Source: Candidatus Gottesmanbacteria bacterium
GTDB taxonomy: Bacteria; Patescibacteriota; Microgenomatia; UBA10105; UBA927
DNA length: 64,000 nucleotides
Direction: 5' to 3'
Assembly (NCBI GenBank): GCA_963790805.1
Contig: CAWBPL010000002.1
Span: 384,696 to 448,695, forward strand
The notes beneath the pieces are model-generated. The model was not told the DNA's origin. It worked only from the letters and a program-made list of their open reading frames with translations, and did no database searches. Below, piece after piece: positions 1 through 26,071 of this stretch; position 1 is the first letter of the stretch, and every line of letters starts with the position of its first letter. A program made the translations under genes and the position numbers.

Positions 1-1458
1 GACTACGCGAAAAACCACAACTATACAATAGTTGGTATTTTCCGCGAGGAAGGTATATCCGGAGGCGTTATAGAAAGACCTCAAATGCAAAGGCTTCTTA
101 TTAGGCTTGAAGACTATAAAGATGAGTCTGATAAAACCATCGTCATCATTGACGACATCAAAAGACTAGCGCGAGACGTTCAGGGGCATTTTATACTGCG
201 TACGGCTATCAACTCCAGAAACGGAGATTTGGAAAGCCCGAGTCACCGGTTTGAAGATTCGCCGGAGGGAAAATTTGTGGAAACGGTGCTTGCCGGCGCT
301 GCAGAACTAGAACGGAATCAAAATAAACAACAGGTAATGAACCGCATGAAGGCTCGTGCGGAAATGGGACACTGGCCTTTCTGTCTTCCGCCTGGACTGA
401 AAAATCAAAAAAATCCAGTTCACGGAAAAGTCGCCCAACGAGACGAACCAATCGCCACTATCTTCAAATCCGCGATTGAAGGTTACCGAGACCGTATCCT
501 TCTTACACAACAAGACGTCATTTCATTTATACAAAACCAATACGAAAAGCAGGGAGTCAATCGCAAAATCTCACTACATGGAGTACAAAGTCTACTCACT
601 GAAATCCTTTACACGGGCTATATTGAATATCCGAAATGGAACATCTCCAGAAGAAAAGGTACCCATGACGGGTTCATCTCTTTGGAAACGTTTGAGGAGG
701 TACAAAAAATTCTCAACGATCGTACGAAGCCGAAAGTTCGCCGAGATACCAGCTCTAATTTTTCTTTAAGAGGACTTGTTCTTTGCTCTTTATGTCATAC
801 CCCTCTTACCGCGAGCCTCCATCACGGACGTAAAGGACAACTCTACCCCCACTATTTTTGCAGGAAACCGGGGTGTGAATTGAAAGACAAATCAGTACGC
901 AAGAAGGATCTTGAAAGTAGCTTCCTCGCCTATTTGGGATCAATAAAATTAGGAAAACCTGTGGCTAACCTCGCTTTGGCGGTTCTAACCGACGTATGGG
1001 ACCAACAACAAGCGCAACTTATCGAGGAACAACGCACAACTGAGTCCAAGAGGCAGGAAACCGAGCAAGCGATCTTTACGGTAAATACTCTCATCAGAAA
1101 AACAACCAACGAAAAACTTATACGGAACTATGAGAATGAACTTATAAGGCTACAGGAACAGAAAGAAAACCTGGAGAATACTAATATACCCACACACCAT
1201 ACTAAAGAACAATTTGGAACCGCTTCAGAGAAGGTGTTAAGCATTCTAGAAAATCCCGCCGATACGTGGCAAACCGGGGATTTGAACGACAGGTTAGCCG
1301 TCTATTTCATGCATTTTGACCAAAAACCGTCCTACGACCGAAACTTGGGATTTGGAACCGCTACTTTGGCGCAACCTGTAGCCATGATTCGCTCTTTGGG
1401 GAGCGAAAAAATACACAGTGTGGAGATGCCGGGTAATGAGCCCGGGTCCGAAAGTTAA
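1..1458 (+). CDS. Large serine recombinase (integrase type), 5' end cut by window edge
   Basis: Frame 1 is open from base 1 (DYAKNHNYTIVGIFREEGISGG...), so the ORF-track Met at 85 is internal. It has the C-terminal half of a resolvase catalytic domain (IVIIDDIKRLARD) and a recombinase domain (GHWPFCLPPGL...LYTGYIEYP). A Cys-pair zinc-ribbon-like motif (CSLCHTPL...YFCRKPGC) and a C-terminal coiled-coil stretch follow. Confidence 0.85.
   Translation, partial: DYAKNHNYTIVGIFREEGISGGVIERPQMQRLLIRLEDYKDESDKTIVIIDDIKRLARDVQGHFILRTAINSRNGDLESPSHRFEDSPEGKFVETVLAGAAELERNQNKQQVMNRMKARAEMGHWPFCLPPGLKNQKNPVHGKVAQRDEPIATIFKSAIEGYRDRILLTQQDVISFIQNQYEKQGVNRKISLHGVQSLLTEILYTGYIEYPKWNISRRKGTHDGFISLETFEEVQKILNDRTKPKVRRDTSSNFSLRGLVLCSLCHTPLTASLHHGRKGQLYPHYFCRKPGCELKDKSVRKKDLESSFLAYLGSIKLGKPVANLALAVLTDVWDQQQAQLIEEQRTTESKRQETEQAIFTVNTLIRKTTNEKLIRNYENELIRLQEQKENLENTNIPTHHTKEQFGTASEKVLSILENPADTWQTGDLNDRLAVYFMHFDQKPSYDRNLGFGTATLAQPVAMIRSLGSEKIHSVEMPGNEPGSES
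1..1458. mobile_element. Right-hand end of an integrated element docked at the tmRNA gene (extent to the left unknown)
   Basis: The recombinase gene abuts and overlaps the 3' end of ssrA, a classic island integration site. The element boundary should lie near 1421-1460. No second att copy is visible inside the window. Confidence 0.45.
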
Positions 1459-7794: not shown

Positions 7795-8484
7795 TCATCG
7801 ACCAAAACGCCGCTGCCGTAAATAGTAATCTGCAATAATTTCATCAAGCCGCTGGGGCGTAAAATCCGGCATAAACCACGGAGAAAAATATAACTCGCTA
7901 TATTCACTTTGCCAGAGTAAAAAACCGCTTAATCGCATTTCACCGCCCGTTCGGATAATAAGCTCTGGATCGGGAATCCCCGCCGTATCAAGATACTCAC
8001 TAAATTCTTTCTCAGTAATATCTCTCTTTTTATTGTGACCACATTTGTGCATGGCGCGTATAATTTCGTTTCTTCCGCCATAGTTTGCCGCAAATATGAC
8101 GGTAATTTTTGTATTATTTCGGGTGCGATCAATAAAATAATGAATCGATTTTTGAATGTCCGGCTCAAATTTTGATATATCCCCTATTGCCTTAATTCGA
8201 ATTCCCTTTTTATGCATTTTTTCTCCAAAATGTCCGAATCCCCACCGGAGAAGATTCATAATCCCTGTCACTTCTTCGTTATCGCGCCGCCAATTCTCGG
8301 TTGACCATGCCCATAGCGTTAAATACTGAACGCCGACGCTTGCTGCATGCTCGATAAGTTTTTCCAATACATTGGTAACAACCCGCCTGTGTCCTTCCGA
8401 TATCGGAAGATTATGCTCACGCGCCCACCGGCGGTTCCCGTCCATAATAATCGCTATATGTTTTGGTGCTTGTTGTGTTTTCAT
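7795..8484 (-). CDS. uppS: Undecaprenyl-diphosphate synthase (cis-isoprenyl transferase)
   Basis: Carries HIAIIMDGNRRWA, LTLWAWSTENWRR and RTGGEMRLSGFLLWQ. Confidence 0.93.
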   Translation of the reverse strand: MKTQQAPKHIAIIMDGNRRWAREHNLPISEGHRRVVTNVLEKLIEHAASVGVQYLTLWAWSTENWRRDNEEVTGIMNLLRWGFGHFGEKMHKKGIRIKAIGDISKFEPDIQKSIHYFIDRTRNNTKITVIFAANYGGRNEIIRAMHKCGHNKKRDITEKEFSEYLDTAGIPDPELIIRTGGEMRLSGFLLWQSEYSELYFSPWFMPDFTPQRLDEIIADYYLRQRRFGR

Positions 8485-8489
8485 AATTT

Positions 8490-9470
8490 CTAAAATAAAT
8501 GGGTATCCGTTAATACGGTTCCGGCGCTTGGTTTATTCAGCAACACGGATTGTACACCCGAACACGCTTTCAGCGCATCCGCTACCCGCATCGCATTGTT
8601 CGCTTCGCAAATACAATGGACATTGGGTCCAGCGTCAATCGTAAAATACACGGGAATCCCCTGAGTCCGTAAATCCCCAACACATTCAATGCACTTCATC
8701 GTTCCCTGATTCCAATAAAAGAGCGACGGCACCTGCGTCATCATGACCGCATGCATGGAAAGACAATCCGCTTCAATCGCTTCTCCCAATAATCGAATAT
8801 CTTTTGATTGCATCGCATCTCTTACTTGTTGTAACCTGTTTGGAACATCGAGGAATCTCTTTTTCCAAAATGGACTCGTTGTTGCCTTATCCATCCCGTC
8901 GGTACTTGTTACTTCTTTTGATCTCTTCTCGACAATAGCAAGAACATCACACAAATCCCAGTGTGTTGATGGATACAAGGAATAGGCATAAGATTCCTCT
9001 GACGTTCCTCCCGTTTTCCACTCAACAAACCCGTCTGGAATAGAACGACATGCTGATCCGGAACCAATACGCGCCAATACCGTTAATTCTTTTCCGCTGA
9101 GCGATAGTCCTAAAGCTGCGGCGGCAGCAACGGTGAGCGCAGCAAATCCCGATGCAGACGATGCAATCCCTGTTCCTTTTGGAAAGGTATTCGATGTTAC
9201 GATCTTTGCACAAAGAGTGCTTTGCGCAATTCTTCGAATCCGATCAAGATGGGAAATAATGCGATTCACTTCTTGTTCCGAAAATATACCATCCGCTAAA
9301 ACAACACTATCGTGAGCATGTGCTTGAGAAAACTCGACGGTAGTCGTCGTTGTCGTGCCGGATAGATTCATGGAAATAGATGAATTTGCCGGAATTCTTA
9401 AAGCATCATGTATTTTACCCCAATATTTGATAAATGCGATGTTTGCCGGTGCTGTCGCCGTTTTTTTCAT
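8490..9470 (-). CDS. mvaD: Diphosphomevalonate decarboxylase
   Basis: The N-terminus is APANIAFIKYWGK, followed by GHMP-type GTGIASSASGFAAL. It overlaps the upstream gene by 4 nt. Confidence 0.9.
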   Translation of the reverse strand: MKKTATAPANIAFIKYWGKIHDALRIPANSSISMNLSGTTTTTTVEFSQAHAHDSVVLADGIFSEQEVNRIISHLDRIRRIAQSTLCAKIVTSNTFPKGTGIASSASGFAALTVAAAAALGLSLSGKELTVLARIGSGSACRSIPDGFVEWKTGGTSEESYAYSLYPSTHWDLCDVLAIVEKRSKEVTSTDGMDKATTSPFWKKRFLDVPNRLQQVRDAMQSKDIRLLGEAIEADCLSMHAVMMTQVPSLFYWNQGTMKCIECVGDLRTQGIPVYFTIDAGPNVHCICEANNAMRVADALKACSGVQSVLLNKPSAGTVLTDTHLF

Positions 9471-10951
9471 ACCAGTATCCCCGCTTCTTTGAGCGCTACT
9501 TCCGCTCCTTTTGTTAACTGGATTTTTCTGCTCACAACGTCAAACCGAAGTTCCCGGATATCAAAATATTGCACGCTATCGACCTCTTCGGGATGTAGAG
9601 TAAACGGTCCGTCGCTTTGTCCTTTATATATCGCTGCGCGCTCGGTTTCTTTCTCATCCCGTACCATACATGTTTTTAAAAAGGTTAACGGCACATCAAT
9701 ACCCAATTCTTCCGATAATTCACGGTGCACCGCTTCATCATCTGTCTGACCTTTCGTCACGTGGCCGGCGGAGGATATTCCCCATAATCCCGGATCCATG
9801 TCTTTGGTCATACTCCGCTTTTGCAAAAGAAGTCTTCCCGCATGATCAAACAATAATACGCCAACCGTCCGATGGATAAGTGTCGGGTTGTGGTGACATT
9901 CAAAGCGCGTTTTATATCCAACAACCGTATCGCTTTCGTCAACAACAATGAAAAGTTCGTCCTGATTATCGGTAGTCTCAACACGTACGCCCTGCGCATC
10001 GGGAAGAACATCCATCACTTGCCCCCCTGCTTTTTGAATTGCCTCTGCAACAAGCGCACATTTGTCTTTTGCAGCAAGGGCAATCATGCAATCACCGCCG
10101 CCGGCTCCCGAAAGTTTTGCTCCCCATGCACCGGCACCTTTGGCTGCGCTCACGAGTGATTCCAACTTCTCGGAGCTTACTCCTAAATCGCGAAGATAGT
10201 CCTGATTAAAATCCATAAGTCGCCCGACACGCTCCCAGTCTCCTTCCAAAATTCTTGCTTTTGCTTCAACGACAAGTTTTTCTATCGCCTGAAATATCCG
10301 ATCAACTTTTTGGGGGTATGCCTTTCGCTTTTCGGCAACCATCGTTACTAACTGTGCCGTGTCCGCTTTTACTCCCGTATACCCGACAATGAGAGGTATT
10401 GAGGAAATCTTTATTGGTTCTATGACTTTCCCACCGCCAACAAAAACAATTGTTCCCCCCCAGATTGCTGCTGCAACATCAAATCCAGATCCTACACCTT
10501 GAACATCCAAAATAGTTTTATAGGCAATATCAAAAAGCTGTTTTTGAGACAATGGTGTGCAAGTAATCGATGCGAGCGCAAAAAGCACTGCAACGGTTGT
10601 TGCCGATGAAGATCCAAAACCAAAGGTTGAAGAAAAGCCTGCGTGCGTTTCAATACGGATTCCCGACGGAAGCGGATATCGTTCAACAAAATTTCGAACG
10701 GCAAATTCTGCAAACTGCGCCTGTTTGGGAATTTCACCGATCCCAAGATCTTTTATTGGCTTTTTATATCCCTTAATGTGTATGTCCGAAGCTTCCAGTT
10801 GAAAATCTGCTGAATCAATTAGGGAAGCAGATGCATGAATTCTTTGATCAACTGCAGTTACAAGACTCGAGTATCCATAGACAACCGCATGATCCCCCAT
10901 GAGAAGTAATTTTCCCGGAGCACTCACGCTTATGGATTGGTTATTTTTCAT
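9467..10951 (-). CDS. Phosphomevalonate kinase (GHMP) fused to a C-terminal Nudix / type-1 IPP-isomerase-like domain
   Basis: The N-terminal ~330 aa carry APGKLLLMGDHAVVYG, GFGSSSATTVA and QGVGSGFDVAAAIWGG (PMK-like). The C-terminal ~165 aa carry HHNPTLIHRTVGVLLF...LLLQKRS..KD..PGLWGISSAGHV...EAVHRELSEELGI, which aligns with E. coli Idi and the Nudix box. I place the start at ATG 10951, preceded by AAGGGA. The ORF-track GTG at 10972 is also possible. Confidence 0.8.
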   Translation of the reverse strand: MKNNQSISVSAPGKLLLMGDHAVVYGYSSLVTAVDQRIHASASLIDSADFQLEASDIHIKGYKKPIKDLGIGEIPKQAQFAEFAVRNFVERYPLPSGIRIETHAGFSSTFGFGSSSATTVAVLFALASITCTPLSQKQLFDIAYKTILDVQGVGSGFDVAAAIWGGTIVFVGGGKVIEPIKISSIPLIVGYTGVKADTAQLVTMVAEKRKAYPQKVDRIFQAIEKLVVEAKARILEGDWERVGRLMDFNQDYLRDLGVSSEKLESLVSAAKGAGAWGAKLSGAGGGDCMIALAAKDKCALVAEAIQKAGGQVMDVLPDAQGVRVETTDNQDELFIVVDESDTVVGYKTRFECHHNPTLIHRTVGVLLFDHAGRLLLQKRSMTKDMDPGLWGISSAGHVTKGQTDDEAVHRELSEELGIDVPLTFLKTCMVRDEKETERAAIYKGQSDGPFTLHPEEVDSVQYFDIRELRFDVVSRKIQLTKGAEVALKEAGILV

Positions 10952-11897
10952 CAAGTCGTATCCCTTCTTCACCTAATCGAACTGCACCAATACTATAGTT
11001 ATATTGTTTGCATATTTTCTCGATTGCCTGTTTATCACTGTGATAACAAAGTAAAAATCCAACTCCTTTTTCTCTGCCGCCGCCCCCTAAAATCTTTGCC
11101 GCAGCACCCAGCGCTTCAATCTTTCGAATCAAAGGGATTACGGTTTTACTGACCACTCCAAATCCCTCCAGTGTTTTTTCTCCCATCCGCAATGCATCAA
11201 TGAGTTCTTTTTCTTGACCCTCTTTCAACGCTATCGTAATTCGCTTAACCTGAGATTCGTTTTCATTAAGGAGTCGATCCATTTCTAACGGATTTTTTTC
11301 GTACTGTTTTCGCACAAATGCCACCATGTCTCCCGTCGACTCGAGAGGTCGTCCGGTGTTAATGAGGAAAAAATGATTGAGTTGAGCGGGTGGTCGAAAC
11401 GGCAACTGCCAAATACTTTTAAGAAATTCTAATTCCCGGCGATACCAGATAAAGCCTCCCATCGTGACTGCCGTATTGTCGCCGCCGGACGGATTACCAT
11501 GCTGTTTTTTTTCAATCTCATACGCAAGCTCGTTTATCCGGATGGGGTTCCAGATTTTTTTATAAAAATACATGAGTGCTGCGCTTATGCCAACCGCGAG
11601 TGCCGCCGATGAACCCAAATGAAATCCGGCTGGAATGTCGGAATCGATCGTCAACGTAACCGGTTTTGTATGAACAATGTTTAACTGCTTCATGACATAC
11701 AAAACTGCATAGCGAGCATGTTCGATAGATTCCGAAGATTGAATCGTAATATCGCTATTTTTTTTGCCTATCAAAGAGGGTTCGGAAATGCTCACGCGCA
11801 TTCGCATGTCGATAGCCGCAAGAAGAGCCGGCTTACCATACACCACCGCATGTTCACCCATGAGATGCACCTTGCCTGGAACGGAAACGGTAACCAT
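10941..11897 (-). CDS. mvk: Mevalonate kinase
   Basis: Carries VPGKVHLMGEHAVVYGKPALLAAI, GFHLGSSAALAV and KKQHGNPSGGDNTAVTMGG, all mevalonate kinase signature regions. Confidence 0.8.
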   Translation of the reverse strand: MVTVSVPGKVHLMGEHAVVYGKPALLAAIDMRMRVSISEPSLIGKKNSDITIQSSESIEHARYAVLYVMKQLNIVHTKPVTLTIDSDIPAGFHLGSSAALAVGISAALMYFYKKIWNPIRINELAYEIEKKQHGNPSGGDNTAVTMGGFIWYRRELEFLKSIWQLPFRPPAQLNHFFLINTGRPLESTGDMVAFVRKQYEKNPLEMDRLLNENESQVKRITIALKEGQEKELIDALRMGEKTLEGFGVVSKTVIPLIRKIEALGAAAKILGGGGREKGVGFLLCYHSDKQAIEKICKQYNYSIGAVRLGEEGIRLDEK

Positions 11898-11899
11898 AG

Positions 11900-12199
11900 C
11901 TAGACTGGTTTAACTTTTATACCGTACGGAATAACGTCATCAGTTTCTATTTGTATTGTCCGCCGGACAACCGTTACGACACGCTGGCCGATAACAAGAT
12001 TCTTTACATCATAATCCACCATTTGAGCCGCAAGAGATTCGCCGGTATCTAACTTCACAAGTGCAACTGGATAGGGCGCCTGATATCCAAAATCCGCCGG
12101 AGGAAGCCGGATAATGGTCCATGAAACGATCACGCCGGTTTTCCCGACCATTCGGGCGACAAATTTTTGATTTCTCCAAACCTTTACTGGACTGATCAT
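11900..12199 (-). CDS. DUF35-type OB-fold protein (thiolase/HMG-CoA-synthase partner), lacking the Zn ribbon
   Basis: The 99-aa product has an OB-fold-like sequence (GVIVSWTIIRLPP..., ALVKLDTGESLAAQMVD). It sits immediately downstream of the thiolase and HMGS genes, as in the archaeal trio. It contains no Cys residues. Confidence 0.65.
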   Translation of the reverse strand: MISPVKVWRNQKFVARMVGKTGVIVSWTIIRLPPADFGYQAPYPVALVKLDTGESLAAQMVDYDVKNLVIGQRVVTVVRRTIQIETDDVIPYGIKVKPV

Positions 12200-12203
12200 A
12201 TGA

Positions 12204-13358
12204 TTATAGTGTTAATATGTGTACTGTTGCCGTCGCACCGCTTCCTCCGACGTTATGGGCAAGTCCGACTTTTGCACGCGCTACTTGTCTTTTTTGTGCG
12301 CGACCACGCAACTGCTCAACTAATTCTGCAACCTGCTTCACGCCCGTTGCACCTACAGGATGACCGCATCCTTTCAGCCCGCCGGATGGATTAACAACGA
12401 ACCGTTTTGATTTCCCAAGTGTTGTCTCTCCGGCCGCAATTCCTTTTGCGGCTTTCCCTTTCGCATAAAATCCAAGATCTTCCATCGCAAGAATTTCAGC
12501 GATAGAAAAACAATCATGTACTTCCGCAACATCTATATCATTTGGTTCTACTCCCGACAGTTCGTACGCACGCTTTGCTGCACGCTTTGTCGCAGCAAGC
12601 TCAGTTAAACTGCTGCGCTGGGCCAAGCCTAATGTGTCTGTTGCTGTCGCTGACGCAATAATGCGCACGTTTGAATTTGCTGATTCAGTGTATTTTTTGT
12701 TGCTCGTTATGATAAGCGATGCGGCACCGTCAGAAATAGGCGAACAGTCTAAAAGCTTTAACGGGTCGGCAACACATGGACTTTTCATAACCTGTTCGAC
12801 AGAAATGAGCGAGTGAAATTGCGCATTGGGATTTAATGTCGCATGATAATGATTTTTTACAGAAACTGCTGCAAGATCTTCCTCTGTCGTTCCATACGTA
12901 GACATATGAATCCGAGAAAGAAGCGCGTATAGACCCGGAAATGTTGCCCCAGCCAATCGTTCCCCCTCGCTTCCGGCTCCCATAAGGGCGGTGGCCACAT
13001 CTTCAGGTTTATGGTCCGTCATTTTTTCCACTCCCAAAACGGCAACTGTTTGATATTGTCCCGACAATACAGCGTTAACTGCATTGTGAAGCGCTAATCC
13101 ACCTGATGCACAGGCGCCCTCAATTTTAAATGCAGGGACAAAGAGGCCAAGTTCTTCGGCAAAAAATGCTCCCAAATGTTCCTGACCGCCAAGCATGCCT
13201 GAAAGCATATTACCGACAAAGAGTGCTTCAATCTTGCTCGCTTCTATTTTGGCATCCAAAAGAGCGTTACCAACCGCCTGACCGGCCAAAGCGCGCGGAG
13301 ATATACCCCACAGTTCACCAAATTTTGTTGTCGCAGCTCCCAGTACAAAAATATTCAT
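12204..13358 (-). CDS. Acetyl-CoA acetyltransferase (archaeal/SCP-x-type thiolase)
   Basis: Carries GAATTKFGE, the active-site region IEGACASGGLALHNAV and the C-terminal GHPVGATGVKQV...NVGGSGATATV. Confidence 0.9.
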   Translation of the reverse strand: MNIFVLGAATTKFGELWGISPRALAGQAVGNALLDAKIEASKIEALFVGNMLSGMLGGQEHLGAFFAEELGLFVPAFKIEGACASGGLALHNAVNAVLSGQYQTVAVLGVEKMTDHKPEDVATALMGAGSEGERLAGATFPGLYALLSRIHMSTYGTTEEDLAAVSVKNHYHATLNPNAQFHSLISVEQVMKSPCVADPLKLLDCSPISDGAASLIITSNKKYTESANSNVRIIASATATDTLGLAQRSSLTELAATKRAAKRAYELSGVEPNDIDVAEVHDCFSIAEILAMEDLGFYAKGKAAKGIAAGETTLGKSKRFVVNPSGGLKGCGHPVGATGVKQVAELVEQLRGRAQKRQVARAKVGLAHNVGGSGATATVHILTL

Positions 13359-13359
13359 A

Positions 13360-14403
13360 TTAAATTTTATGAGTTTTTTTCAAGTATCCGACGTAATCAA
13401 TATAAACTTTCTTTTCAATTTGTTGACAAACTAATTCACCTTCTTCTTTCCGCTTTTTTTGCAACGGAATCATTTCATCTTGCACTTGCCACAAAAATGC
13501 GTCACTACCAGCTCCTGACCCATAAGAAACCATGAAAATAGTATCTCCTGGTTTCGCCTGATCCAGAGTGGCTGCTAACCCTAAAAGCGAAGCAGCGGAA
13601 TAGGGGTTGCCGATGCGATCAACGATTAAAGACGGCGCCAGCTGGGTGGCAGTAAATCCAAGCCGTTTGGCGGCTTCTCTTGGAAATTTTGCATTGGGCA
13701 TATGAAACACACAATGGGTTACATGATCTGGTGTTATCTTTGCTTTTTCCATCAGACTTTTTGCGGCACCCAACACATGAGCAAAATAGGCCGGTTCTCC
13801 GGTAAACCGTCCTGCGTGGGTAGGATATCGGATGCCATCACGCCGCCAAAAATCCGGCGTATCCGAGGAGTAGGAAGTATAGGACAGAAGCGTCGCAATA
13901 GTATGCATTGACCCTAATAGAAATCCTGCTCCTGCCGACGCCGATGTATACTCGAGCGCATCGTGCGGCTTACTCTGCGCCGTATCTGATCCGATAGCCA
14001 ACCCATAATGAATATGCTCGGATTCAACAAGTCCGGCGATTGCCTGCATGCCTGCTGTTGCCGCTTTACATGCAAACTCGAGATCAACAGCCAGATAATG
14101 ATTACCAATCCCAAGAAGTTCACCAACGATGGTTGACGTTGGATTTACCGCATACGGATGACTTTCTGATCCGACAAACAAAGCTTCAAGATCTGTGGGT
14201 TTACAACCGCTGAATCGAAGTGCGCTCTCACCCGCTTCAAGCGCAATAGTTACTGAATCTTCGTCAATGCCCGGCACAGATTTTTCTTGAATTCCAAGCG
14301 AACTCGCGATTTCTTTTCCATCTTTTCCCCACACTTTCGCTATATCTTCAAGGGTCACCCGATATCGGGGTATGTATGTACCATATGAAACAATTCCCGT
14401 CAT
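13360..14403 (-). CDS. Hydroxymethylglutaryl-CoA synthase (short, archaeal-type)
   Basis: The 347-aa product carries GIVSYGTYIPRYRV, DEDSVTIALEA, the catalytic Cys region DLEFACKAATAG and VSYGSGAGSDAF. Confidence 0.88.
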   Translation of the reverse strand: MTGIVSYGTYIPRYRVTLEDIAKVWGKDGKEIASSLGIQEKSVPGIDEDSVTIALEAGESALRFSGCKPTDLEALFVGSESHPYAVNPTSTIVGELLGIGNHYLAVDLEFACKAATAGMQAIAGLVESEHIHYGLAIGSDTAQSKPHDALEYTSASAGAGFLLGSMHTIATLLSYTSYSSDTPDFWRRDGIRYPTHAGRFTGEPAYFAHVLGAAKSLMEKAKITPDHVTHCVFHMPNAKFPREAAKRLGFTATQLAPSLIVDRIGNPYSAASLLGLAATLDQAKPGDTIFMVSYGSGAGSDAFLWQVQDEMIPLQKKRKEEGELVCQQIEKKVYIDYVGYLKKTHKI

Positions 14404-15575
14404 AGTGCGCCCCCTCTGCCAAGTTGTGCGTGGGCTCGCGCCAGCGTTCCTTCTTCAAGAGATGCAAGAAGTGAAATTTCTCCAGCCAATATCGCTGCGC
14501 CAGCTATTTCAGCAAAAAGACGTGCATTATTGCCGTTATCCCCTCCGGCAACTCCTAACATCGAAAGGGCCTCGTGTTGGGTCGCAAGTCCAGTTCCGCC
14601 TCCAACTGTACCGATCATCAAATCCGGAACGTATACACATACATATAAATCTTCGCCAGACAAAACTTCTGCGGTTGTCACACCCAAACTTCCTTCAACG
14701 ACATGCGCCGGATCCTGACCGGTAGCTAAAAATAATGCCGCGACCACATTGGCAAATTGGGCGTTAAATGCCATGGACCCGCTCATAACACTTCCCAGCA
14801 TACACTTGGCTAACCACACATCGTACATCTTTTGCGCTGTCGTTTTGAGAACTGTAGCAAGCACGGTTTTTGTCAACACAACTTCCGCCCAAACTTTAAT
14901 TCCTCGTTTTCCAAGAACATTGAGCCATGAAGGTTTTTTATCAACACAGTAATTTCCGGAAAGCGCCAAGCACTCAACTCCGGTTTTTTCCTGCATATAC
15001 GAAGCAATCGCTTCTGTCGCTATTGTCACCATGTTAAGTCCCATCGCGTCCTGCGTATCAAAAACAAACCGGACATACCGGTATCTCCCGATTCCTGTTG
15101 AGGAAAACGATGTGAGCGCAAGATGGTGAGATGTTTTGGCGGCGATCGCCTTGAGTTCATCAAACCGCGTATCCAAAAATGTACGAAGCGTTCTGTTTTC
15201 CGCTAGATTTTTCACCCGAAAAACCGGTCCTCGGGTAGCCCCTATTTTGTGGCTATCAACAATCGCTCCGCCGCTTTGCGTAATCGCCTTGCATCCGCGA
15301 TTAATTGACGCCACAAGCGCTCCTTCTGTTGTCGCAAGTGGTATATAATACTCTTTTTCCCTGTGAGCGATGGGGTTTGAAATGTGCGATTGAATCCGTA
15401 AAGGACCGGCAACTCCCACGGGAATCTGAGCTACTCCAATCATATTTTCACAATTTCTGGTTGAAGCGGCTGCTTCATCGAGCGTAAATGAGCCGATATG
15501 AGGCAGCTTAATGTGAAGCTCTTTCTCAAGCATCTCTCGCCGTTTCCCCGCCGATGTTCCTTTGCGTATATTCAT
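14400..15575 (-). CDS. HMG-CoA reductase, class I type
   Basis: Carries ENMIGVAQIPVGVAGPLRI, IPLATTEGALVASINRGCKAI, DAMGLNMV and GTVGGGT. The TTEGxLVAS motif is class I rather than class II. I place the start at ATG 15575 (MNIRKG...), a 4-nt overlap with the upstream stop. The ORF-track start at 15725 adds a Cys/Phe-rich extension inside the neighbouring gene. Confidence 0.9.
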   Translation of the reverse strand: MNIRKGTSAGKRREMLEKELHIKLPHIGSFTLDEAAASTRNCENMIGVAQIPVGVAGPLRIQSHISNPIAHREKEYYIPLATTEGALVASINRGCKAITQSGGAIVDSHKIGATRGPVFRVKNLAENRTLRTFLDTRFDELKAIAAKTSHHLALTSFSSTGIGRYRYVRFVFDTQDAMGLNMVTIATEAIASYMQEKTGVECLALSGNYCVDKKPSWLNVLGKRGIKVWAEVVLTKTVLATVLKTTAQKMYDVWLAKCMLGSVMSGSMAFNAQFANVVAALFLATGQDPAHVVEGSLGVTTAEVLSGEDLYVCVYVPDLMIGTVGGGTGLATQHEALSMLGVAGGDNGNNARLFAEIAGAAILAGEISLLASLEEGTLARAHAQLGRGGAL

Positions 15576-16189
15576 ATAAACGGTATACGAAAAATTCCCA
15601 ACCGATACATGCCGACAGTATAGAATCCTAAAATCGGCAACACGATGGCTGACAAAAGCACAATTTTCACAAGGTCCATTCGAAAAGCAAAACGCAATGT
15701 GAGATACGAAAGAATGACTTTCCAAAATAAAAGAATTGCGGAAACGATAAGATACACGATGCTAAACGCCACCCCGAAAAATCTTGTCGTTCTGGGCGGC
15801 GGCAATATGATGTAAAGAAGAAGTGTTATCCAAAACCAGAGAAGCGTTGGAATCATGCTGTATCCCCAACCGACGATAAGTCCCCGAAGATTTGTGGTGG
15901 CCCGCAATAACCGCCCGACCCCCCAGAAAAGCGAAACAGCCAATATTAACGTTAATCCTGTGGCTGATGCAAGCGTTATAAATTGCCGTGACAATAAAAA
16001 CGGTTCGAAAAGCGATTGTTTAACCAATGAAACGGTAAGCAAATAACACAGTATTAAAGCGACAACAAACGCGAATTCTCCTATATTTCCATGTTCAACT
16101 ATCCGTCGGCATGTTTCATAGGGCCTCGTGACAATGCCCACAAGATTCCGTCCAAACGATACACCAACCGTTGTAATCGAATTTGACAT
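15572..16189 (-). CDS. Polytopic membrane protein (Yip1-like, tentative)
   Basis: It has about five hydrophobic helices after a short soluble N-terminus (MSNSITTVGVSFGRNLVGIVTRPYETCRRI). I choose the start at 16189 to avoid overlapping the upstream small gene. Function unknown. Confidence 0.45.
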   Translation of the reverse strand: MSNSITTVGVSFGRNLVGIVTRPYETCRRIVEHGNIGEFAFVVALILCYLLTVSLVKQSLFEPFLLSRQFITLASATGLTLILAVSLFWGVGRLLRATTNLRGLIVGWGYSMIPTLLWFWITLLLYIILPPPRTTRFFGVAFSIVYLIVSAILLFWKVILSYLTLRFAFRMDLVKIVLLSAIVLPILGFYTVGMYRLGIFRIPFI

Positions 16190-17799: not shown

Positions 17800-18183
17800 A
17801 TGATCTTAACTGACAATACTCTTCATTTAGGACCAATTGGCGGAAGCGGCTTGGGGCCATTTAGTACCATCGGAAGCTCTAACAATGGGTCGGCGGGTAT
17901 CACCGGCGTTGCTGATCTTGTCAGCTCCGTTATCGGAATTCTGACAGTCGTTGCAAGCGTCTGGTTTTTGTTAAATATTCTCTTCGGCGGATATGAATGG
18001 ATGTCAGCAGGCGGCGATTCCAAAAAAATCGGAGAGGCGCGCGATCACATTACCCATGCATTTATCGGACTTGTCATTGTTGTCGGTGCATGGGCGCTTA
18101 CCGCAACCGCTGGTCAATTCTTTGGCTTTAGCATATTGGATCCGGCAAAATTATTCGGGACCCTGCCTATCAACGGCAAATAA
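17800..18183 (+). CDS. VirB2/TrbC-like T4SS pilin-family protein
   Basis: Starts 3 nt after the previous stop. It has a Gly/Ser-rich N-domain. Core motif: GGYEWMSAGGDSKKIGEARDHITHAFIGLVIVV. Confidence 0.7.
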   Translation: MILTDNTLHLGPIGGSGLGPFSTIGSSNNGSAGITGVADLVSSVIGILTVVASVWFLLNILFGGYEWMSAGGDSKKIGEARDHITHAFIGLVIVVGAWALTATAGQFFGFSILDPAKLFGTLPINGK

Positions 18184-18184
18184 T

Positions 18185-18541
18185 ATGACCCATGTATTGG
18201 CACAGATCGTAAATCCTGTATTACCAAGTAGTATTGGAGGGAAAGGCTCATCAGGAGATCAGGGTGGCACAGCGCTGGGCCTGCTTGTCAGCAATGTTGT
18301 AGGCGGACTGTTTATCGCCGGATTTCTTCTCGCACTTGTTTTTTTGGTCATGGGAGGATTTACATGGATTACCTCCGGCGGAGATAAAACAAAACTCGAA
18401 AAAGCACGCGACGAAATCACAAATTCCCTCATTGGCATTGTTGTTGTAGCCGCAGCATGGGCTATTGCAACATTGGTTGCGAAATTCTTTGGCATGGATT
18501 TATCACATTTACCCATTCCTTCCATTCCGGGAGGAAACTAA
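18185..18541 (+). CDS. VirB2/TrbC-like T4SS pilin-family protein
   Basis: I use the in-frame ATG at 18185 (MTHVLAQI...), 1 nt after the previous stop. The ORF-track start at 17993 would overlap the preceding gene. Core motif: GGFTWITSGGDKTKLEKARDEITNSLIGIVVVA. Confidence 0.7.
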   Translation: MTHVLAQIVNPVLPSSIGGKGSSGDQGGTALGLLVSNVVGGLFIAGFLLALVFLVMGGFTWITSGGDKTKLEKARDEITNSLIGIVVVAAAWAIATLVAKFFGMDLSHLPIPSIPGGN

Positions 18542-18648
18542 AAATAACGAAGCTCAGAAATTATTCGGGGTTGACAAGGTAAAAACATTTGCGCGACAAT
18601 AACAACTAAGATATAATAAGCTATATTGTGACCGAAGGAGGATTCTCT

Positions 18649-18990
18649 ATGTTCCCACAAGTATTTGCTCAAAGTAATCCACAGATTACCATTAACCAAC
18701 CGTCAAACATCAAAATCGGTGATGTCGGCCAGCTTATCAGCGCTTTGGTGGGAACACTTCTTATTGTATCTGCACTTCTTGCATTCTTCTATCTTATTTT
18801 GGGAGGCATCTCGTGGATTACTTCAGGCGGCGATAAGGCAGCCATGGAAGCGGCCCGAAACAAAATCACGCATGCGATCGTCGGACTTATCATTGTGGGC
18901 GCCGCATGGGCTGTCATGATACTCGTTCAGAACTTCTTAGGCGTCACGATTATCGGCGGAACATTAAGCTTTCCGAAACCGTTTCAATAG
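18649..18990 (+). CDS. VirB2/TrbC-like T4SS pilin-family protein
   Basis: The ATG at 18649 (MFPQVFAQS...) is preceded by GGAGGA at 18637-18642. Core motif: GGISWITSGGDKAAMEAARNKITHAIVGLIIVG. A TATAAT hexamer lies at 18612-18617. Confidence 0.7.
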   Translation: MFPQVFAQSNPQITINQPSNIKIGDVGQLISALVGTLLIVSALLAFFYLILGGISWITSGGDKAAMEAARNKITHAIVGLIIVGAAWAVMILVQNFLGVTIIGGTLSFPKPFQ

Positions 18991-19022
18991 AGTGTACCCC
19001 GTTTCTTTACAGCGCTTCATAG

Positions 19023-19409
19023 GTGCGAGATAATACACGCATGATACTTACCCAACTTACTTCATTGTTTGTTGTACACGCCGCGGATGACTGGGGCGGA
19101 TGTTTACAGGGAAGCGGCACCGGCGCCCCTGACGTTGCGACGTTCACGTGTCTTGAGCCGCTTTTCAAAAACGTCATTCAAGCCATCATTGCGCTTGCGG
19201 GAGTCGCACTGTTTATCATGTTTTTGATCGGCGGGTTTAGTTTTCTTTTTTCCGGCGGCGATCCGAAAAAACTTGAGTCAGCACGAGGCACCATTACCAA
19301 TGCCATTATCGGTCTTATCGTCATCGTTGCCGCATACATCATACTTCGCATTATCGAGGTATTTACGGGGGTGCCTGTTACTAAATTTGGCGTTACCATA
19401 CCGCAGTAA
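19023..19409 (+). CDS. VirB2/TrbC-like T4SS pilin-family protein with Sec-type signal peptide
   Basis: The start is GTG 19023, or ATG 19041. The signal-like N-terminus is MRDNTRMILTQLTSLFVVHA|ADD, and the N-domain holds two Cys. Core motif: GGFSFLFSGGDPKKLESARGTITNAIIGLIVIV. Confidence 0.65.
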   Translation: MRDNTRMILTQLTSLFVVHAADDWGGCLQGSGTGAPDVATFTCLEPLFKNVIQAIIALAGVALFIMFLIGGFSFLFSGGDPKKLESARGTITNAIIGLIVIVAAYIILRIIEVFTGVPVTKFGVTIPQ

Positions 19410-19436
19410 TCCATCATTGACTGCACTCTTTTTTTA

Positions 19437-20942
19437 TTGGACAATAGAAATGTGAAGCGCATATCGTGGTTTATCCAAATAGCACTTGCTGTCTTTCTTT
19501 TCCTCCTCATACCGGCGAGCCGGAATCTATTTATTTACGGTAATTCTTCCGTCTTGGCGGCTCCAGCTCCTTATCTAGAACAGAACTACGCCACAGATAC
19601 GGATAATGCAATCAAAAATCAGCAGGTAAGCCTTACTCCCATTACCGAACAAACCAGTTTTGTCGACATGCACTGGTTAACATGTCACATCATTACCTAT
19701 TATTACAACGGCCCGTATACCTGTACGCAGGACGAAACAATATATAAAACGTCAATGAAATCAAGTGCACTGGGCAACATCGCCATGGGCATAAATACCA
19801 TGTACGAAAATCCGCCGGCGGACCTCGCGTATTGGGTGCAGGACACTGCGCAATCACTTGGCATTGCGCCAAGACAGGTATACGCGCAGGGTATCGGATT
19901 TACGGGTCTTGCCCCTTTATTACCGGTATGGAAGGCGTTTCGCAATATCGCCTATCTTGTTTTAGCCCTTGCGATGATAGTAATCGGATTTATGGTTATG
20001 TTGCGCAAAAAAATCGATCCGAAAACCGTGGTTACCGTACAAAACTCAATTCCGCGCATTGTTATCGCTCTTATTCTTATCACATTTTCCTATGCAATCG
20101 TCGGGCTGTTTATCGATGTGATGTATCTTCTGATGGGGTTTTTATCAATAGTCGTCCAGGGGGCACTACCCAATACAACCCTCGGAAAGTCTCTTATACC
20201 CATAAATTTTTCTAATCCGGGATTTGTTGACCTTATTCGTGCTGTTCTTACCCCTGCCGGCGAAATGAGTCCTTCAACCTCAATGATTAATGATTTTTAT
20301 CACGGAGACGTATTGGGAGGGCTTTTAAACATGATTGGTACCGGGATATTTTATGGTACTGGGATCGGTTTCATATTTATGTTTATTATTACGATCGCGT
20401 ATTTAATCGCATTTATCCGCATACTTATGATGCTTCTTAACAGCTACGTTCAGATTCTCTTAGCGGTTTTGACCGGCCCGCTTCAAATTCTTGTCGACGT
20501 ATTTCCCGGAGCCGACGGATTTACATCATGGGTAAAAAATCTTGCGGCGAACCTCATCGTTTTTCCGGTTACCGCGCTTCTTCTTATGGTTGCTGATGTC
20601 ATTACACAATACACCGGCAGTCAGACGCTGTGGACTCCGCCGTTTTTGCCGCAAACCATTTATTCCGGCACGTTACCGGTCGTCGGCAATGTGACGGTTG
20701 GCGGTATGGGCGGGCTCGCTGAGGGAATTATTGCTCTTGGCATCGTCCTTGCAATCCCCAGTATCGTCAACGGCATAAAGGAAGCGCTCAAAGCCAAGCC
20801 GCTTATCAGCAGTGGTCTTGACGTGGTCGGCGGACAGGTGAAGGGAGCCTTCCCGATTGCTCTCCAGCTCGGTGGCATGGCGCTACAACATCAGCAAATG
20901 AGTCAATTCGGTAAAATGCTGGGACAGGGAAAAGAAGAATAA
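19437..20942 (+). CDS. Polytopic membrane protein, candidate VirB6/TrbL-like T4SS channel component
   Basis: The 501-aa product has an N-terminal signal/TM, an exposed domain of about 130 aa, and then at least 6 hydrophobic helices. It lies immediately downstream of the pilin array. The call rests on topology and context only. Confidence 0.4.
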   Translation: MDNRNVKRISWFIQIALAVFLFLLIPASRNLFIYGNSSVLAAPAPYLEQNYATDTDNAIKNQQVSLTPITEQTSFVDMHWLTCHIITYYYNGPYTCTQDETIYKTSMKSSALGNIAMGINTMYENPPADLAYWVQDTAQSLGIAPRQVYAQGIGFTGLAPLLPVWKAFRNIAYLVLALAMIVIGFMVMLRKKIDPKTVVTVQNSIPRIVIALILITFSYAIVGLFIDVMYLLMGFLSIVVQGALPNTTLGKSLIPINFSNPGFVDLIRAVLTPAGEMSPSTSMINDFYHGDVLGGLLNMIGTGIFYGTGIGFIFMFIITIAYLIAFIRILMMLLNSYVQILLAVLTGPLQILVDVFPGADGFTSWVKNLAANLIVFPVTALLLMVADVITQYTGSQTLWTPPFLPQTIYSGTLPVVGNVTVGGMGGLAEGIIALGIVLAIPSIVNGIKEALKAKPLISSGLDVVGGQVKGAFPIALQLGGMALQHQQMSQFGKMLGQGKEE

Positions 20943-20968
20943 GTACCGTGATATTTGAATGAAACTTC

Positions 20969-25030: not shown

Positions 25031-25081
25031 ATTATATTTATGCCTTTCTATTGCTCTTTTTAATTATAACATCCCAATAAA

Positions 25082-25648: not shown

Positions 25649-25699
25649 AAAATTCTAAATCCTAAATTCTAAATCTAAAATAAATTCAAATATCAAAAA

Positions 25700-26071
25700 T
25701 CAAACACTACTCTTCTTTTGTTTTTCTACTATTGATCCGAATATTTTAGTTAATTCGAGCGCTTCCTGAATAAGAATTTCTTGCTCAGACAACATTTCTT
25801 CTTTTACTATACACAGCCTCAGCCACAATCGGCTTTCTTTACTTTCTTTCCGGCATATCTTAACTCGATGGAAAAAATCTTTTTGACTTATTGCTTCATT
25901 TGCTTCTATGTAATTTGCCGCCTGCGATCCTGATGATCGAATCAATTGCTCCCCATATTCAATGTTTGCTTGTGTTTTTGAGAGTTTACCAATAAAATCA
26001 CGACATCGTTTTGCAAACGCAAATGTCCGATCTTCTAGATCGTATTGTTTTGAATTTTTGATTTGTTCCAT
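25700..26071 (-). CDS. Four-helix-bundle protein (23S rRNA intervening-sequence protein family)
   Basis: The 123-aa product carries RTFAFAKRCRDFIGKL...QLIRSSGSQAANYIEANEA.S.KDF..RVKICRKESKESRLWL, characteristic of this family. Confidence 0.8.
   Translation of the reverse strand: MEQIKNSKQYDLEDRTFAFAKRCRDFIGKLSKTQANIEYGEQLIRSSGSQAANYIEANEAISQKDFFHRVKICRKESKESRLWLRLCIVKEEMLSEQEILIQEALELTKIFGSIVEKQKKSSV

What the first reader, a model, noticed from the sequence alone, without database searches (positions are those of the whole stretch)
9467..10951. Phosphomevalonate kinase fused to an IDI-like Nudix domain whose catalytic Cys position reads Ala
The C-terminal ~165 aa align by eye with E. coli Idi. 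The residues H..H in HHNPTLIH correspond to H25/H32. The segment PGLWGISSAGHV corresponds to PGVWTNSVCGHP, and ETERAAIY corresponds to ENEVCPVF.

The position of the catalytic Cys67 is Ala (SSAGH). Meanwhile a nearly intact Nudix box (GHVTKGQ-x7-RELSEELGI) is retained.

The domain may therefore be a pyrophosphohydrolase acting on a mevalonate-pathway diphosphate rather than an isomerase. It may instead be an isomerase with a relocated nucleophile. Either way, a PMK-Nudix fusion is an unusual architecture, and it skips the decarboxylase step in pathway order.
Basis: partly seen in the sequence, partly recalled or inferred. Interest (0 to 1): 0.55.

Follow-up and report, generated by a model that had tools for sequence, protein, structure and literature searches.

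The report
Phosphomevalonate kinase fused to Cys-less IDI-like domain
A candidate-phyla-radiation bacterium fuses a mevalonate-pathway kinase to a domain that resembles isopentenyl-diphosphate isomerase but lacks all three isomerase-specific residues, so either it is a hydrolase or these bacteria isomerise by an unknown mechanism.

Summary
Window 9467-10951 (- strand) is one uninterrupted ORF of 494 aa: a GHMP kinase joined to a 169-aa Nudix domain. It sits in an operon HMGR-HMGS-thiolase-DUF35-kinase-[kinase::Nudix]-MDD-UPPS. More than 120 protein clusters from Patescibacteria (Gottesmanbacteria, Microgenomates) share this architecture.

The position of E. coli Idi Cys67 is Ala395. Across 55 fused homologues it is A, G or S, never Cys. 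Tyr104 and Trp161 are also missing. The His/His/His/Glu/Glu metal site and a full REx2EE Nudix motif are invariant or nearly so.

The domain belongs to a large, uncharacterised Cys-less sister family of type-1 IDI. It falls below every curated IDI and YfcD cut-off.

The upstream kinase is the mevalonate kinase.

Function is unresolved. Residues, co-occurrence with canonical IDI in some relatives and fusion partners elsewhere favour a diphosphate hydrolase (about 0.5). The operon position, filled by IDI-1 or IDI-2 in other relatives, keeps a non-canonical isomerase alive (about 0.3). This is a new variant of a known kind, of moderate to high interest.

The parts
9467..10951 (-). Whole fusion gene (494 aa plus stop): PMK-type GHMP kinase joined to a Cys-less IDI-like Nudix domain
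   Evidence: Translational coupling overlaps at both ends.
9977..10951 (-). GHMP kinase domain (residues 1-325), assigned as phosphomevalonate kinase
   Evidence: End-to-end alignment to M. mazei MK 4hac at 161 bits, but the catalytic motifs are PMK-type.
10466..10525 (-). Motif AYKTILDVQGVGSGFDVAAA. It lacks the Glu found 11 residues before the catalytic Asp in all MKs (the position I identify, from memory of the literature, as rat MK Glu193).
10079..10117 (-). Motif III KLSGAGGGDCMIA. The Asp is as in solved PMKs 3gon and 3k17; MKs have Gly here.
   Evidence: The Asp is invariant in 55 homologues.
9470..9976 (-). IDI-like Nudix domain (residues 326-494)
   Evidence: Pfam NUDIX. AF2 model pLDDT 95.8. 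Foldseek: YfcD 2fkb TM 0.83, human IDI1 TM 0.81.
9767..9769 (-). Ala395 codon at the position of catalytic Cys67 of E. coli Idi
9698..9766 (-). Nudix box GHVTKGQTDDEAVHRELSEELGI (REx2EE intact; first Glu is Gln)
9641..9895 (-). Span holding the codons of the IDI-type metal ligands: H353 (9893-9895), H360 (9872-9874), H397 (9761-9763), E435 (9647-9649), E437 (9641-9643). It also holds invariant D384 (9800-9802).
10941..11897 (-). Upstream GHMP kinase, assigned as mevalonate kinase (AYEIEKKQHGNPSGGDNTAV)
8490..9470 (-). Diphosphomevalonate decarboxylase gene
   Evidence: TIGR01240 scores 263 bits against a cut-off of 171. Pfam MVD-like_N and MDD_C.
7795..8484 (-). cis-prenyltransferase (undecaprenyl-diphosphate synthase) gene
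   Evidence: PF01255, 243 bits.
11900..15725 (-). Upper pathway genes: DUF35/OB protein 11900-12199, archaeal-type thiolase 12204-13358, HMG-CoA synthase 13360-14403, HMG-CoA reductase 14400-15725. The listed TTG start of the reductase is probably too far upstream.
   Evidence: The same order is seen in L001, L004, L005 and L010.

Best explanation
One gene encodes a two-domain protein of the mevalonate operon.

N-terminal domain. This is the pathway's phosphomevalonate kinase (inferred from catalytic motifs). The kinase encoded just upstream is the mevalonate kinase.

C-terminal domain. This is not a canonical type-1 IPP isomerase. It belongs to a large sister family with three properties:
- It keeps the IDI fold, the His3Glu2 metal site and the basic residues that hold a diphosphate (shown).
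- It has lost Cys67, Tyr104 and Trp161, the three residues that carry out and stabilise the protonation/deprotonation chemistry of IDI-1 (shown).
- It has a full Nudix REx2EE motif plus an extra invariant Asp (shown).

Most likely mechanism (inferred). The domain binds a small isoprenoid diphosphate, IPP/DMAPP or possibly a longer prenyl diphosphate, in the IDI-type pocket. It then hydrolyses the terminal phosphate by Mg2+-dependent Nudix chemistry to give the monophosphate. This could work as a valve or regulator on the pathway's end product, or as a supplier of a prenyl monophosphate.

Origin of the fusion (shown). Two adjacent, translationally coupled genes fused; they remain separate in related genomes. 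AlphaFold predicts a defined two-domain arrangement.
For: Residue evidence:
- In 217 canonical IDI-1 sequences, C67 is Cys in 216, R83 is Arg in 215, Y104 is Tyr in 94%, and W161 is Trp wherever aligned.
- In the 55 fused homologues the same positions are A/G/S, Glu (100%), V/T/S/I and A/G/C. D384 is 100% Asp, against R/P/M in canonical IDIs.
- The metal ligands and the REx2EE residues R, E, E, E are conserved in 93-100% of the 55.

Curated models:
- IDI NF002995 scores 86 bits against a cut-off of 127.
- TIGR02150 scores 65 against 106.
- YfcD scores 64 against 152.
- A genuine Patescibacteria IDI (P0354) passes both IDI models.

Phylogeny: in an NJ tree the fused clade sits inside the Cys-less family, and canonical IDIs form a separate clade.

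A distinct function is implied by coexistence with canonical IDI while the Cys-less 'active-site' residues stay intact:
- Tandem IDI::Cys-less proteins P0124, P0125, P0126 and P0135.
- P0126 lies in a mevalonate operon (L003).
- The two are adjacent separate genes in L006.

The wider family is fused to a HAD phosphatase and to Ppx/GppA.

Structure: the closest solved fold is the Nudix hydrolase YfcD.

Precedent (from my own memory, not verified here): an IPP/DMAPP-specific Nudix hydrolase from Methanosarcina mazei was reported by Ishibashi et al. 2022. NCBIfam NF041653 'Nud_hyd_Meth' matches the domain weakly, at 51 bits.

PMK assignment.

Fusion and interface:
- Separate adjacent genes occur in L004, L010, L016, L033 and L053.
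- The full-length model has pLDDT 92.5 and pTM 0.80.
Against: - No activity was measured.
- A hydrolase that destroys the pathway's product is an odd partner for a biosynthetic kinase.
- A mevalonate-only organism needs an isomerase to make DMAPP. None was found in the 64-kb window.
- Hoshino & Gaucher 2018 (PMC6107057) report IDI-2 as sparse and 'IDI-I' as universal in these bacteria.
- In related operons the equivalent slot is filled by canonical IDI-1 (L017, L039, L026, L028) or by IDI-2 (L014). That pattern looks like functional replacement.
- The IDI-specific His3Glu2 site has no known role in Nudix hydrolysis, yet it is strictly conserved.
- Whole-length similarity and NCBIfam TIGR00549 (188 bits against a cut-off of 163) call the kinase a mevalonate kinase.
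Confidence: 0.5

Rival explanations
1. The Cys-less domain is the organism's IPP:DMAPP isomerase and works by a non-canonical mechanism. The conserved His3Glu2 metal site with Glu437 would still protonate or deprotonate the substrate. The missing Cys thiol would be replaced by a water or hydroxide, or by another residue. Under this reading the fusion joins PMK to the last enzyme of the pathway.
For: - It occupies the position where related operons carry canonical IDI-1 (L017, L039, L026, L028) or IDI-2 (L014).
- No other IDI-like domain or IDI-2 lies in the window.
- DMAPP is indispensable for priming prenyl chain synthesis, and the mevalonate route gives only IPP (established pathway knowledge).
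- PMC6107057 reports 'IDI-I' as universal and IDI-II as sparse in these bacteria, and reports IPK-IDI-I synteny even where other pathway genes are missing.
- All five IDI metal ligands and the K21/R51/K55-equivalent diphosphate binders are conserved.
- Canonical IDIs related to Patescibacteria ones were never on contigs of the lengths that carry the fusion. This is weak evidence, because only the top 120 hits were visible.
Against: - Cys67, Tyr104 and Trp161 are all absent, and no compensating invariant residue unique to the family was found except the acidic D384 and E411, which point to metal and diphosphate chemistry.
- Pocket-lining residues that are invariant in IDI-1 (F, S, N, C, C, S, P, Y, W) are replaced by small, poorly conserved residues.
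- The domain coexists, intact, with canonical IDI in tandem fusions and as a neighbouring gene.
- Close relatives occur in non-isoprenoid contexts (L007, L008) and fused to phosphohydrolases.
- The closest PMK relative, L012, has no such domain within 10 kb.
Confidence: 0.3
2. The domain is catalytically silent. It would be a ligand-binding (IPP/DMAPP-sensing) regulatory module, or a structural partner that modulates the fused kinase, and in tandem proteins the neighbouring IDI.
For: - It is repeatedly fused to pathway enzymes: PMK here, and canonical IDI in P0124-P0126 and P0135.
- The full-length model predicts a defined interdomain arrangement (pTM 0.80).
- The isomerase catalytic residues are lost.
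- Non-enzymatic Nudix domains are known (PMC5389931).
Against: Every residue expected for metal binding and Nudix catalysis is invariant across roughly 50%-identical homologues, which is the pattern of an active enzyme. The domain also exists as a free-standing gene in many relatives.
Confidence: 0.1
3. The fused kinase is the mevalonate kinase, as public annotation says, and the upstream kinase is the phosphomevalonate kinase. This rival concerns only the N-terminal domain.
For: - The best solved relative is M. mazei MK (161 bits, full length).
- TIGR00549 scores 188 bits, above its cut-off of 163.
- The PMK models are far below their cut-offs (85 against 166, and 89 against 500).
- Source names say 'mevalonate kinase'.
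Against: - The fused kinase lacks the Glu conserved 11 residues before the catalytic Asp in every MK examined. It has GGGDC like the solved PMKs 3gon and 3k17.
- The upstream kinase has the MK motif E-x-E...HGNPSGGDN, like rat and Leishmania MK.
- Across 79 loci the two signatures are mutually exclusive. Wherever two kinases co-occur there is one of each.
- In L005 only the upstream type is kept.
Confidence: 0.2
4. The fusion is an assembly or sequencing artefact that joins two separate genes.
For: In several related genomes the kinase and the Nudix protein are separate adjacent ORFs (L004, L010, L016, L033, L053).
Against: The reading frame is continuous. More than 120 independent protein clusters from NCBI, ENA, JGI and Logan assemblies have the same fused architecture and a conserved junction, GVRVETTDNQDELF.
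Confidence: 0.01

Closest known systems
Type-1 isopentenyl-diphosphate isomerase (E. coli Idi, PDB 1NFS/1HX3; human IDI1, PDB 2I6K)
   Same: - Nudix/IDI fold (TM 0.80-0.83).
- The five metal ligands H25, H32, H69, E114 and E116.
- The diphosphate-binding K21, R51 and K55 equivalents.
- The N-terminal acidic residue.
- A location in a mevalonate operon.
   Different: - Cys67 is replaced by Ala (A/G/S in the family).
- Tyr104 is replaced by Val.
- Trp161 is replaced by Gly.
- Arg83 is replaced by an invariant Glu, giving REx2EE where IDI has RRx2(Y/E)E.
- An invariant Asp384 is added.
- HP becomes HV.
- It scores below both curated IDI models.
E. coli YfcD (PDB 2FKB), a Nudix hydrolase of unknown substrate
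   Same: Best structural match (TM 0.83/0.86, rmsd 1.7 A, 28% identity). Shares the TKD motif, the REx2EE box and Ala at the Cys67 position.
   Different: In the and alignments YfcD has no His at the H25 or H69 equivalents (H69 is replaced by Gly) and no Glu at the E114/E116 equivalents, so it appears to lack the IDI metal site. It is not linked to isoprenoid genes. The query scores 64 bits against a cut-off of 152.
IPP/DMAPP-specific Nudix hydrolase of Methanosarcina mazei (recalled from memory: Ishibashi et al. 2022; possibly the basis of NCBIfam NF041653)
   Same: A Nudix protein of similar size that acts on C5 isoprenoid diphosphates. It is the mechanistic precedent for the favoured explanation. 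The query matches NF041653 weakly (51 bits); P0126 domain 2 scores 92 bits.
   Different: The score is far below the family cut-off of 300. I could not retrieve the paper or the sequence here, so the relation is a lead, not a test.
Phosphomevalonate kinase of the GHMP superfamily (S. pneumoniae, PDB 3GON/1K47; Listeria, PDB 3K17)
   Same: GS-x-x-D-[VIL]-A and SGAGGGDC motifs. No Glu at the MK metal-ligand position.
   Different: Overall sequence is much closer to archaeal mevalonate kinases (161 bits to 4hac, against 23 bits to 1k47). It is fused to a Nudix domain.
IspDF, the bifunctional MEP-pathway protein
   Same: A natural fusion of two enzymes of one isoprenoid precursor pathway that catalyse non-consecutive steps (cited in PMC13001223).
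   Different: A different pathway and unrelated folds. Both IspDF activities are established.

Membership tests
Type-1 IPP isomerase (IDI-1) | Nudix-type alpha/beta fold of IDI | tested here: met
   AF2 model pLDDT 95.8. Foldseek to human IDI1 gives TM 0.81 and to E. coli Idi TM 0.80.
Type-1 IPP isomerase (IDI-1) | Octahedral metal site formed by H25, H32, H69, E114 and E116 | tested here: met
   H353, H360, H397, E435 and E437 are conserved in 93-100% of 55 homologues.
Type-1 IPP isomerase (IDI-1) | Catalytic Cys67 | tested here: not met
   Ala395 in the query; A40/G12/S3 in the family. Cys in 216 of 217 canonical IDIs.
Type-1 IPP isomerase (IDI-1) | Tyr104 and Trp161 (proton relay and carbocation stabilisation) | tested here: not met
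   Val430 and Gly482 in the query. The family has V/T/S/I and A/G/C; canonical IDIs have Y in 94% and W wherever aligned.
Type-1 IPP isomerase (IDI-1) | Curated model score (NCBIfam NF002995, TIGR02150) | tested here: not met
   86.4 bits against a cut-off of 127, and 65.4 against 105.8. The control P0354 passes with 156.6 and 147 bits.
Type-1 IPP isomerase (IDI-1) | IPP/DMAPP isomerase activity | not testable with these tools
   Needs an enzyme assay or complementation.
Nudix pyrophosphohydrolase | Nudix box GX5EX7REUXEEXGU | tested here: met
   G396-x5-Q402-x7-R410-E-L-S-E-E-L-G-I418. REx2EE is conserved in 98-100% of the family. The first position is Q in 56% and E in 38%.
Nudix pyrophosphohydrolase | Hydrolysis of a diphosphate linkage | not testable with these tools
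   Inferred from the motif only.
YfcD family (NCBIfam NF011922) | Curated model score | tested here: not met
   64.2 bits against a cut-off of 152.
GHMP phosphomevalonate kinase | PMK-type catalytic motifs: GGGD in motif III, and no Glu 11 residues before the catalytic Asp | tested here: met
   KLSGAGGGDCMIA and AYKTILDVQGVGSGFD, compared with 3gon and 3k17. The two signatures are cleanly separated over 79 loci.
GHMP phosphomevalonate kinase | Curated model score (TIGR01220, NF040957) | tested here: not met
   85 bits against a cut-off of 166, and 89 against 500.
GHMP mevalonate kinase | Curated model score (TIGR00549) | tested here: met
   188 bits against a cut-off of 163.
GHMP mevalonate kinase | Conserved Glu (the rat Glu193 position, as I recall it) and GGGG(C) in motif III | tested here: not met
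   Ile and Asp at these positions. Every archaeal, rat and Leishmania MK examined, and the upstream kinase, has Glu at the first position. At the motif-III position the archaeal and rat MKs have Gly, whereas Leishmania MK and the upstream kinase carry a divergent Gly-rich motif III (GTGRGG / GGGGREKG) without the Asp.

The most novel reading that the evidence does not exclude
The Cys-less IDI-like domain is the only IPP:DMAPP isomerase of most mevalonate-pathway Patescibacteria. That would make it a third mechanistic class of IDI: Nudix fold, metal-dependent, but independent of Cys, Tyr and Trp. Here it would be physically coupled to phosphomevalonate kinase.
Probability: 0.3. Interest if true: 0.8.

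Novelty: new variant of a known kind. Interest (0 to 1): 0.58.

Why it matters
Organisms that make isoprenoids only through mevalonate cannot do without an IPP isomerase. In much of the candidate phyla radiation, the only 'IDI' that genome surveys report appears to be this Cys-less protein. There are two possible outcomes.

- If it isomerises, IDI-1 chemistry can run without its textbook Cys/Tyr/Trp triad.
- If it hydrolyses, these bacteria have an unrecognised control point on IPP/DMAPP, or a prenyl-diphosphate phosphatase. Their true isomerase would still be missing.

Either outcome can be tested directly with one recombinant protein.

The analysis also shows that a whole clade of phosphomevalonate kinases is annotated as mevalonate kinase. 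That matters for pathway reconstruction and for arguments about the ancestry of the mevalonate pathway.

Tried and rejected
- The first genome-contig scan, with the single protein, found no relatives because the patterns were too specific. The alignment-based rescan worked.
- An exact look-up of P0001, to name the source genome, found nothing on record.
- No supplement of PMC6107057 is held. A literature search for the M. mazei Nudix hydrolase (MM_2582) found nothing. Searches for a kinase-Nudix fusion found no paper describing it.
- I tried to detect a canonical IDI in the same genomes by matching 'longest contig' lengths between the fusion hits and the IDI hits. There were no matches, but only the top 120 hits of each search are visible, so the result is inconclusive.
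- I considered Cys352 as a relocated nucleophile and rejected it: 85% of canonical IDIs also have Cys there.
- I considered the Cys at position -1 (SCAGH) and rejected it: it is present in only 8 of 55 homologues.
- I rejected deciding MK versus PMK from whole-protein HMM scores. Both kinases score as MK-like, so the scores do not discriminate.
- I considered undecaprenyl-diphosphate dephosphorylation as the specific role, because UPPS is the next-but-one gene and small residues replace the pocket-closing Trp and Cys. It remains pure speculation, because model coordinates could not be inspected.
Full report
**What is in the sequence**

The finding's coordinates hold one ORF on the minus strand. 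It runs 9467..10972 from a GTG. The ATG at 10951 gives 494 aa and matches the N-termini of homologues.

It lies inside a co-directional operon:
- HMG-CoA reductase (14400-15725)
- HMG-CoA synthase (13360-14403)
- archaeal-type thiolase (12204-13358)
- DUF35/OB protein (11900-12199)
- a first GHMP kinase (10941-11897)
- the fusion gene
- diphosphomevalonate decarboxylase (8490-9470; TIGR01240 263 bits)
- a cis-prenyltransferase (7795-8484)

The fusion gene overlaps both neighbours, by 11 nt upstream and by ATGA downstream, as translationally coupled genes do. Pfam finds GHMP_kinases_N, GHMP_kinases_C and NUDIX in the one protein.

**The fusion is real and common in one lineage**

A search of about 5.8 billion proteins returned 3882 matches. 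The best 120 are all full-length, at 49-66% identity, and carry the same three Pfam domains. Where they are named, they come from Patescibacteria, Gottesmanbacteria and Microgenomates, and they are called 'mevalonate kinase'. The junction GVRVETTDNQDELF is conserved, and a 56%-identical homologue sits in the same operon.

In other relatives the kinase and the Nudix protein are separate, adjacent and often overlapping genes (L004, L010, L016, L033, L053). The fusion therefore arose from neighbouring genes. AlphaFold models the whole protein with pLDDT 92.5 and pTM 0.80, which suggests a fixed interdomain arrangement.

**The missing cysteine**

HMMER alignments to solved IDIs place the query segment WGISSAGHV opposite WTNSVCGHP, so Cys67 corresponds to Ala395. 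Across 55 fused homologues this position is A40/G12/S3. The preceding position is Cys in only 8 of the 55.

H353, H360, H397, E435 and E437 match the five IDI metal ligands. R349, R379 and K383 match the diphosphate binders K21, R51 and K55. All are invariant or nearly so.

I then compared 217 canonical IDI-1 sequences gathered.

| E. coli Idi position | Canonical IDI-1 (n = 217) | Fused family (n = 55) |
|---|---|---|
| Cys67 | Cys in 216 | A/G/S |
| Arg83 | Arg in 215 | Glu in 100% |
| Tyr104 | Tyr in 94% | V/T/S/I |
| Trp161 | Trp wherever aligned | A/G/C |
| Position of D384 | R/P/M | Asp in 100% |

Most other pocket residues that are invariant in IDI-1 are replaced by small, variable residues. 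All three residues specific to isomerase chemistry are therefore gone, while the Nudix REx2EE motif, degenerate in IDI, is complete.

Cys352, the only invariant Cys, is not a relocated nucleophile candidate. Most canonical IDIs have Cys at that position too.

**Family placement**

The domain model (pLDDT 95.8) matches several solved structures: E. coli YfcD best (TM 0.83, 28% identity), then human IDI1 (27%), E. coli Idi (21%) and DR0079.

It falls below every curated cut-off: IDI 86 bits against 127, IDI 65 against 106, and YfcD 64 against 152. A bona fide Patescibacteria IDI passes both IDI models.

An exhaustive search of 1.84 billion representatives found 8319 relatives, 1946 of them at E < 1e-10. 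Most of the top 150 are free-standing proteins of 165-190 aa. They share one signature: H...H...S-x-[GSAT]-G-H...REx2EE...ExE. A neighbour-joining tree puts the fused clade inside this Cys-less family, with canonical IDIs in a separate clade.

**Genomic associations pull in two directions**

Evidence for a function distinct from IDI:
- Four diverged representatives (P0124, P0125, P0126, P0135) are tandem proteins. One domain is a textbook IDI (SCCSH, RR, Trp) and the other is Cys-less.
- P0126 heads a mevalonate operon (L003).
- In L006 a canonical IDI and a Cys-less protein are adjacent genes in the operon.
- Close Cys-less relatives lie next to thioredoxin or ribonucleotide-reductase genes (L007, L008).
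- More distant members are fused to a HAD phosphatase, Ppx/GppA, UDG or a peptidase.
- The closest PMK relative (L012, 64% identity) has no such domain within 10 kb.

Evidence for an IDI role:
- In related operons the corresponding slot holds canonical IDI-1 (L017, L039, L026, L028) or IDI-2 (L014).
- The 64-kb window has no other IDI-like domain and no IDI-2. None of the roughly 40 window ORFs put through Pfam is an IPK.
- Hoshino & Gaucher (PMC6107057) report 'IDI-I' as universal and IDI-II as sparse in these bacteria.
- The mevalonate route yields only IPP, so an isomerase must exist somewhere.

**Which kinase is fused**

Whole-length similarity says mevalonate kinase: M. mazei MK at 161 bits, and TIGR00549 at 188 bits against a cut-off of 163. 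However, the upstream kinase is also MK-like, so these scores do not discriminate between the two.

Residue signatures do discriminate.
- MK signature. The solved MKs whose alignments were printed (M. mazei 4hac/6mde, 8teb, rat 1kvk and Leishmania 2hfs) and the upstream kinase have a Glu 11 residues before the catalytic Asp, within E-x-E...G-x-x-S-x-x-D. In the rat, Leishmania and upstream-kinase sequences this reads HG-x-PSG-x-DN. The archaeal and rat MKs also have GGGG(C) in motif III; Leishmania MK and the upstream kinase have a divergent Gly-rich motif without Asp.
- PMK signature. The fused kinase has no such Glu. It has GSGFDVAAA and SGAGGGDC, as do the solved PMKs 3gon/1k47 and 3k17.

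Over 79 loci from GTDB genomes the two signatures are mutually exclusive. Wherever two kinases co-occur there is one of each; this holds in Patescibacteria, a Woesearchaeote, Calditrichaeota and Planctomycetota. In L005 only the MK type is retained.

**Verdict on mechanism**

I weighed four lines of evidence: the loss of the whole isomerase triad, the regained Nudix box, the intact coexistence with canonical IDI, and the phosphohydrolase fusion partners. Against these stand the operon-slot and pathway-hole arguments.

My estimates are:
- about 0.5 for a Mg2+-dependent diphosphate hydrolase acting on IPP/DMAPP or a longer prenyl diphosphate
- about 0.3 for a non-canonical isomerase
- about 0.1 for a non-catalytic ligand-binding module

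An IPP/DMAPP-specific archaeal Nudix hydrolase, which I recall from the literature but could not retrieve here, is the mechanistic precedent. No paper in the searchable library describes this fusion or the Cys-less family.

**Novelty**

The architecture is already present in databases but is uncharacterised and probably misnamed. The domain is a new variant within the IDI/Nudix group. The question it raises is how mevalonate-only Patescibacteria make DMAPP, and what this ubiquitous IDI look-alike does. That question can be tested directly.

Noticed in passing
window 9977-10951 and homologues P0002-P0120: A whole clade of PMK-signature kinases is named 'mevalonate kinase' by NCBI and JGI and passes TIGR00549. 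This is probably a systematic misannotation in Patescibacteria.
   Followed up: yes
L005:5704-8180: A related operon has the MK-type kinase, then the Cys-less Nudix gene, then the decarboxylase, with no PMK-type kinase. It may use a phosphomevalonate-decarboxylase/IPK route, or the PMK may lie elsewhere.
   Followed up: partly
P0124, P0125, P0126 (L003:82-1137), P0135; P0121, P0137: Tandem two-domain proteins join a canonical IDI to a Cys-less IDI-like domain. In P0121 and P0137 the order is reversed, and the canonical-type domain has Ser in place of the catalytic Cys (FSSHP) while keeping Trp161.
   Followed up: partly
L042:8651-10915, and similar ORFs in L045, L051, L056: Proteins of about 750 aa carry an MK-type kinase at the C-terminus and are followed by a canonical IDI-1 gene, in Calditrichaeota, Planctomycetota and a Gammaproteobacteria MAG. 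Pfam, run on L042 only, shows the N-terminal part there is HMG-CoA reductase (an HMGR::MK fusion).
   Followed up: partly
L012:9178-9990: In the Gottesmanbacteria genome with the closest PMK (64% identity), a class-I SAM methyltransferase gene sits between the MK and PMK genes. No Nudix or IDI gene lies within 10 kb.
   Followed up: partly
L016 (- strand ORF at 8448-8978 in the coordinates of my own script, reverse-complement frame); L028, L031, L032: Further odd IDI-like genes occur in Patescibacteria operons. One has Tyr104 and Trp161 but GATHP instead of the Cys motif. Others have CC but Asn at the His69 position. The IDI family is unusually plastic in this group.
   Followed up: no
L014:12620-13636: A type-2 (FMN) IDI gene lies downstream of the MK/PMK pair in a MAG labelled 'uncultured archaeon'. 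It was detected with a B. subtilis Fni sequence recalled from memory; that probe also found IDI-2 in 16 archaeal loci.
   Followed up: partly
window 35703-38414: dnaN and dnaA lie here, and the GC skew changes sign at about 38 kb. This is probably the chromosomal replication origin.
   Followed up: no
window 17993-34691: A cluster of type-IV-secretion-like genes (T4SS pilin, PrgI, TraG/VirB4-like and coupling ATPases, an M23 peptidase) includes an unannotated 1353-aa ORF at 20969-25030.
   Followed up: no
window 40000-64000: G+C drops from about 0.45 to about 0.38. The region is a glycan-biosynthesis cluster: a homologue of plant 'reversibly glycosylated polypeptide' (41673-42647, PF03214, 174 bits), two Wzy_C proteins, a radical-SAM/SPASM protein, a DegT aminotransferase, an epimerase and glycosyltransferases. 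It may be a horizontally acquired island.
   Followed up: no
window 85-1458: A large serine recombinase (resolvase, recombinase and zinc-ribbon domains) lies at the window edge.
   Followed up: no
window 14400-15725: The listed HMG-CoA reductase ORF (441 aa, TTG start) overlaps the upstream Yip1-domain gene. Homologues are 372-390 aa, so the true start is probably about 50 codons downstream.
   Followed up: no
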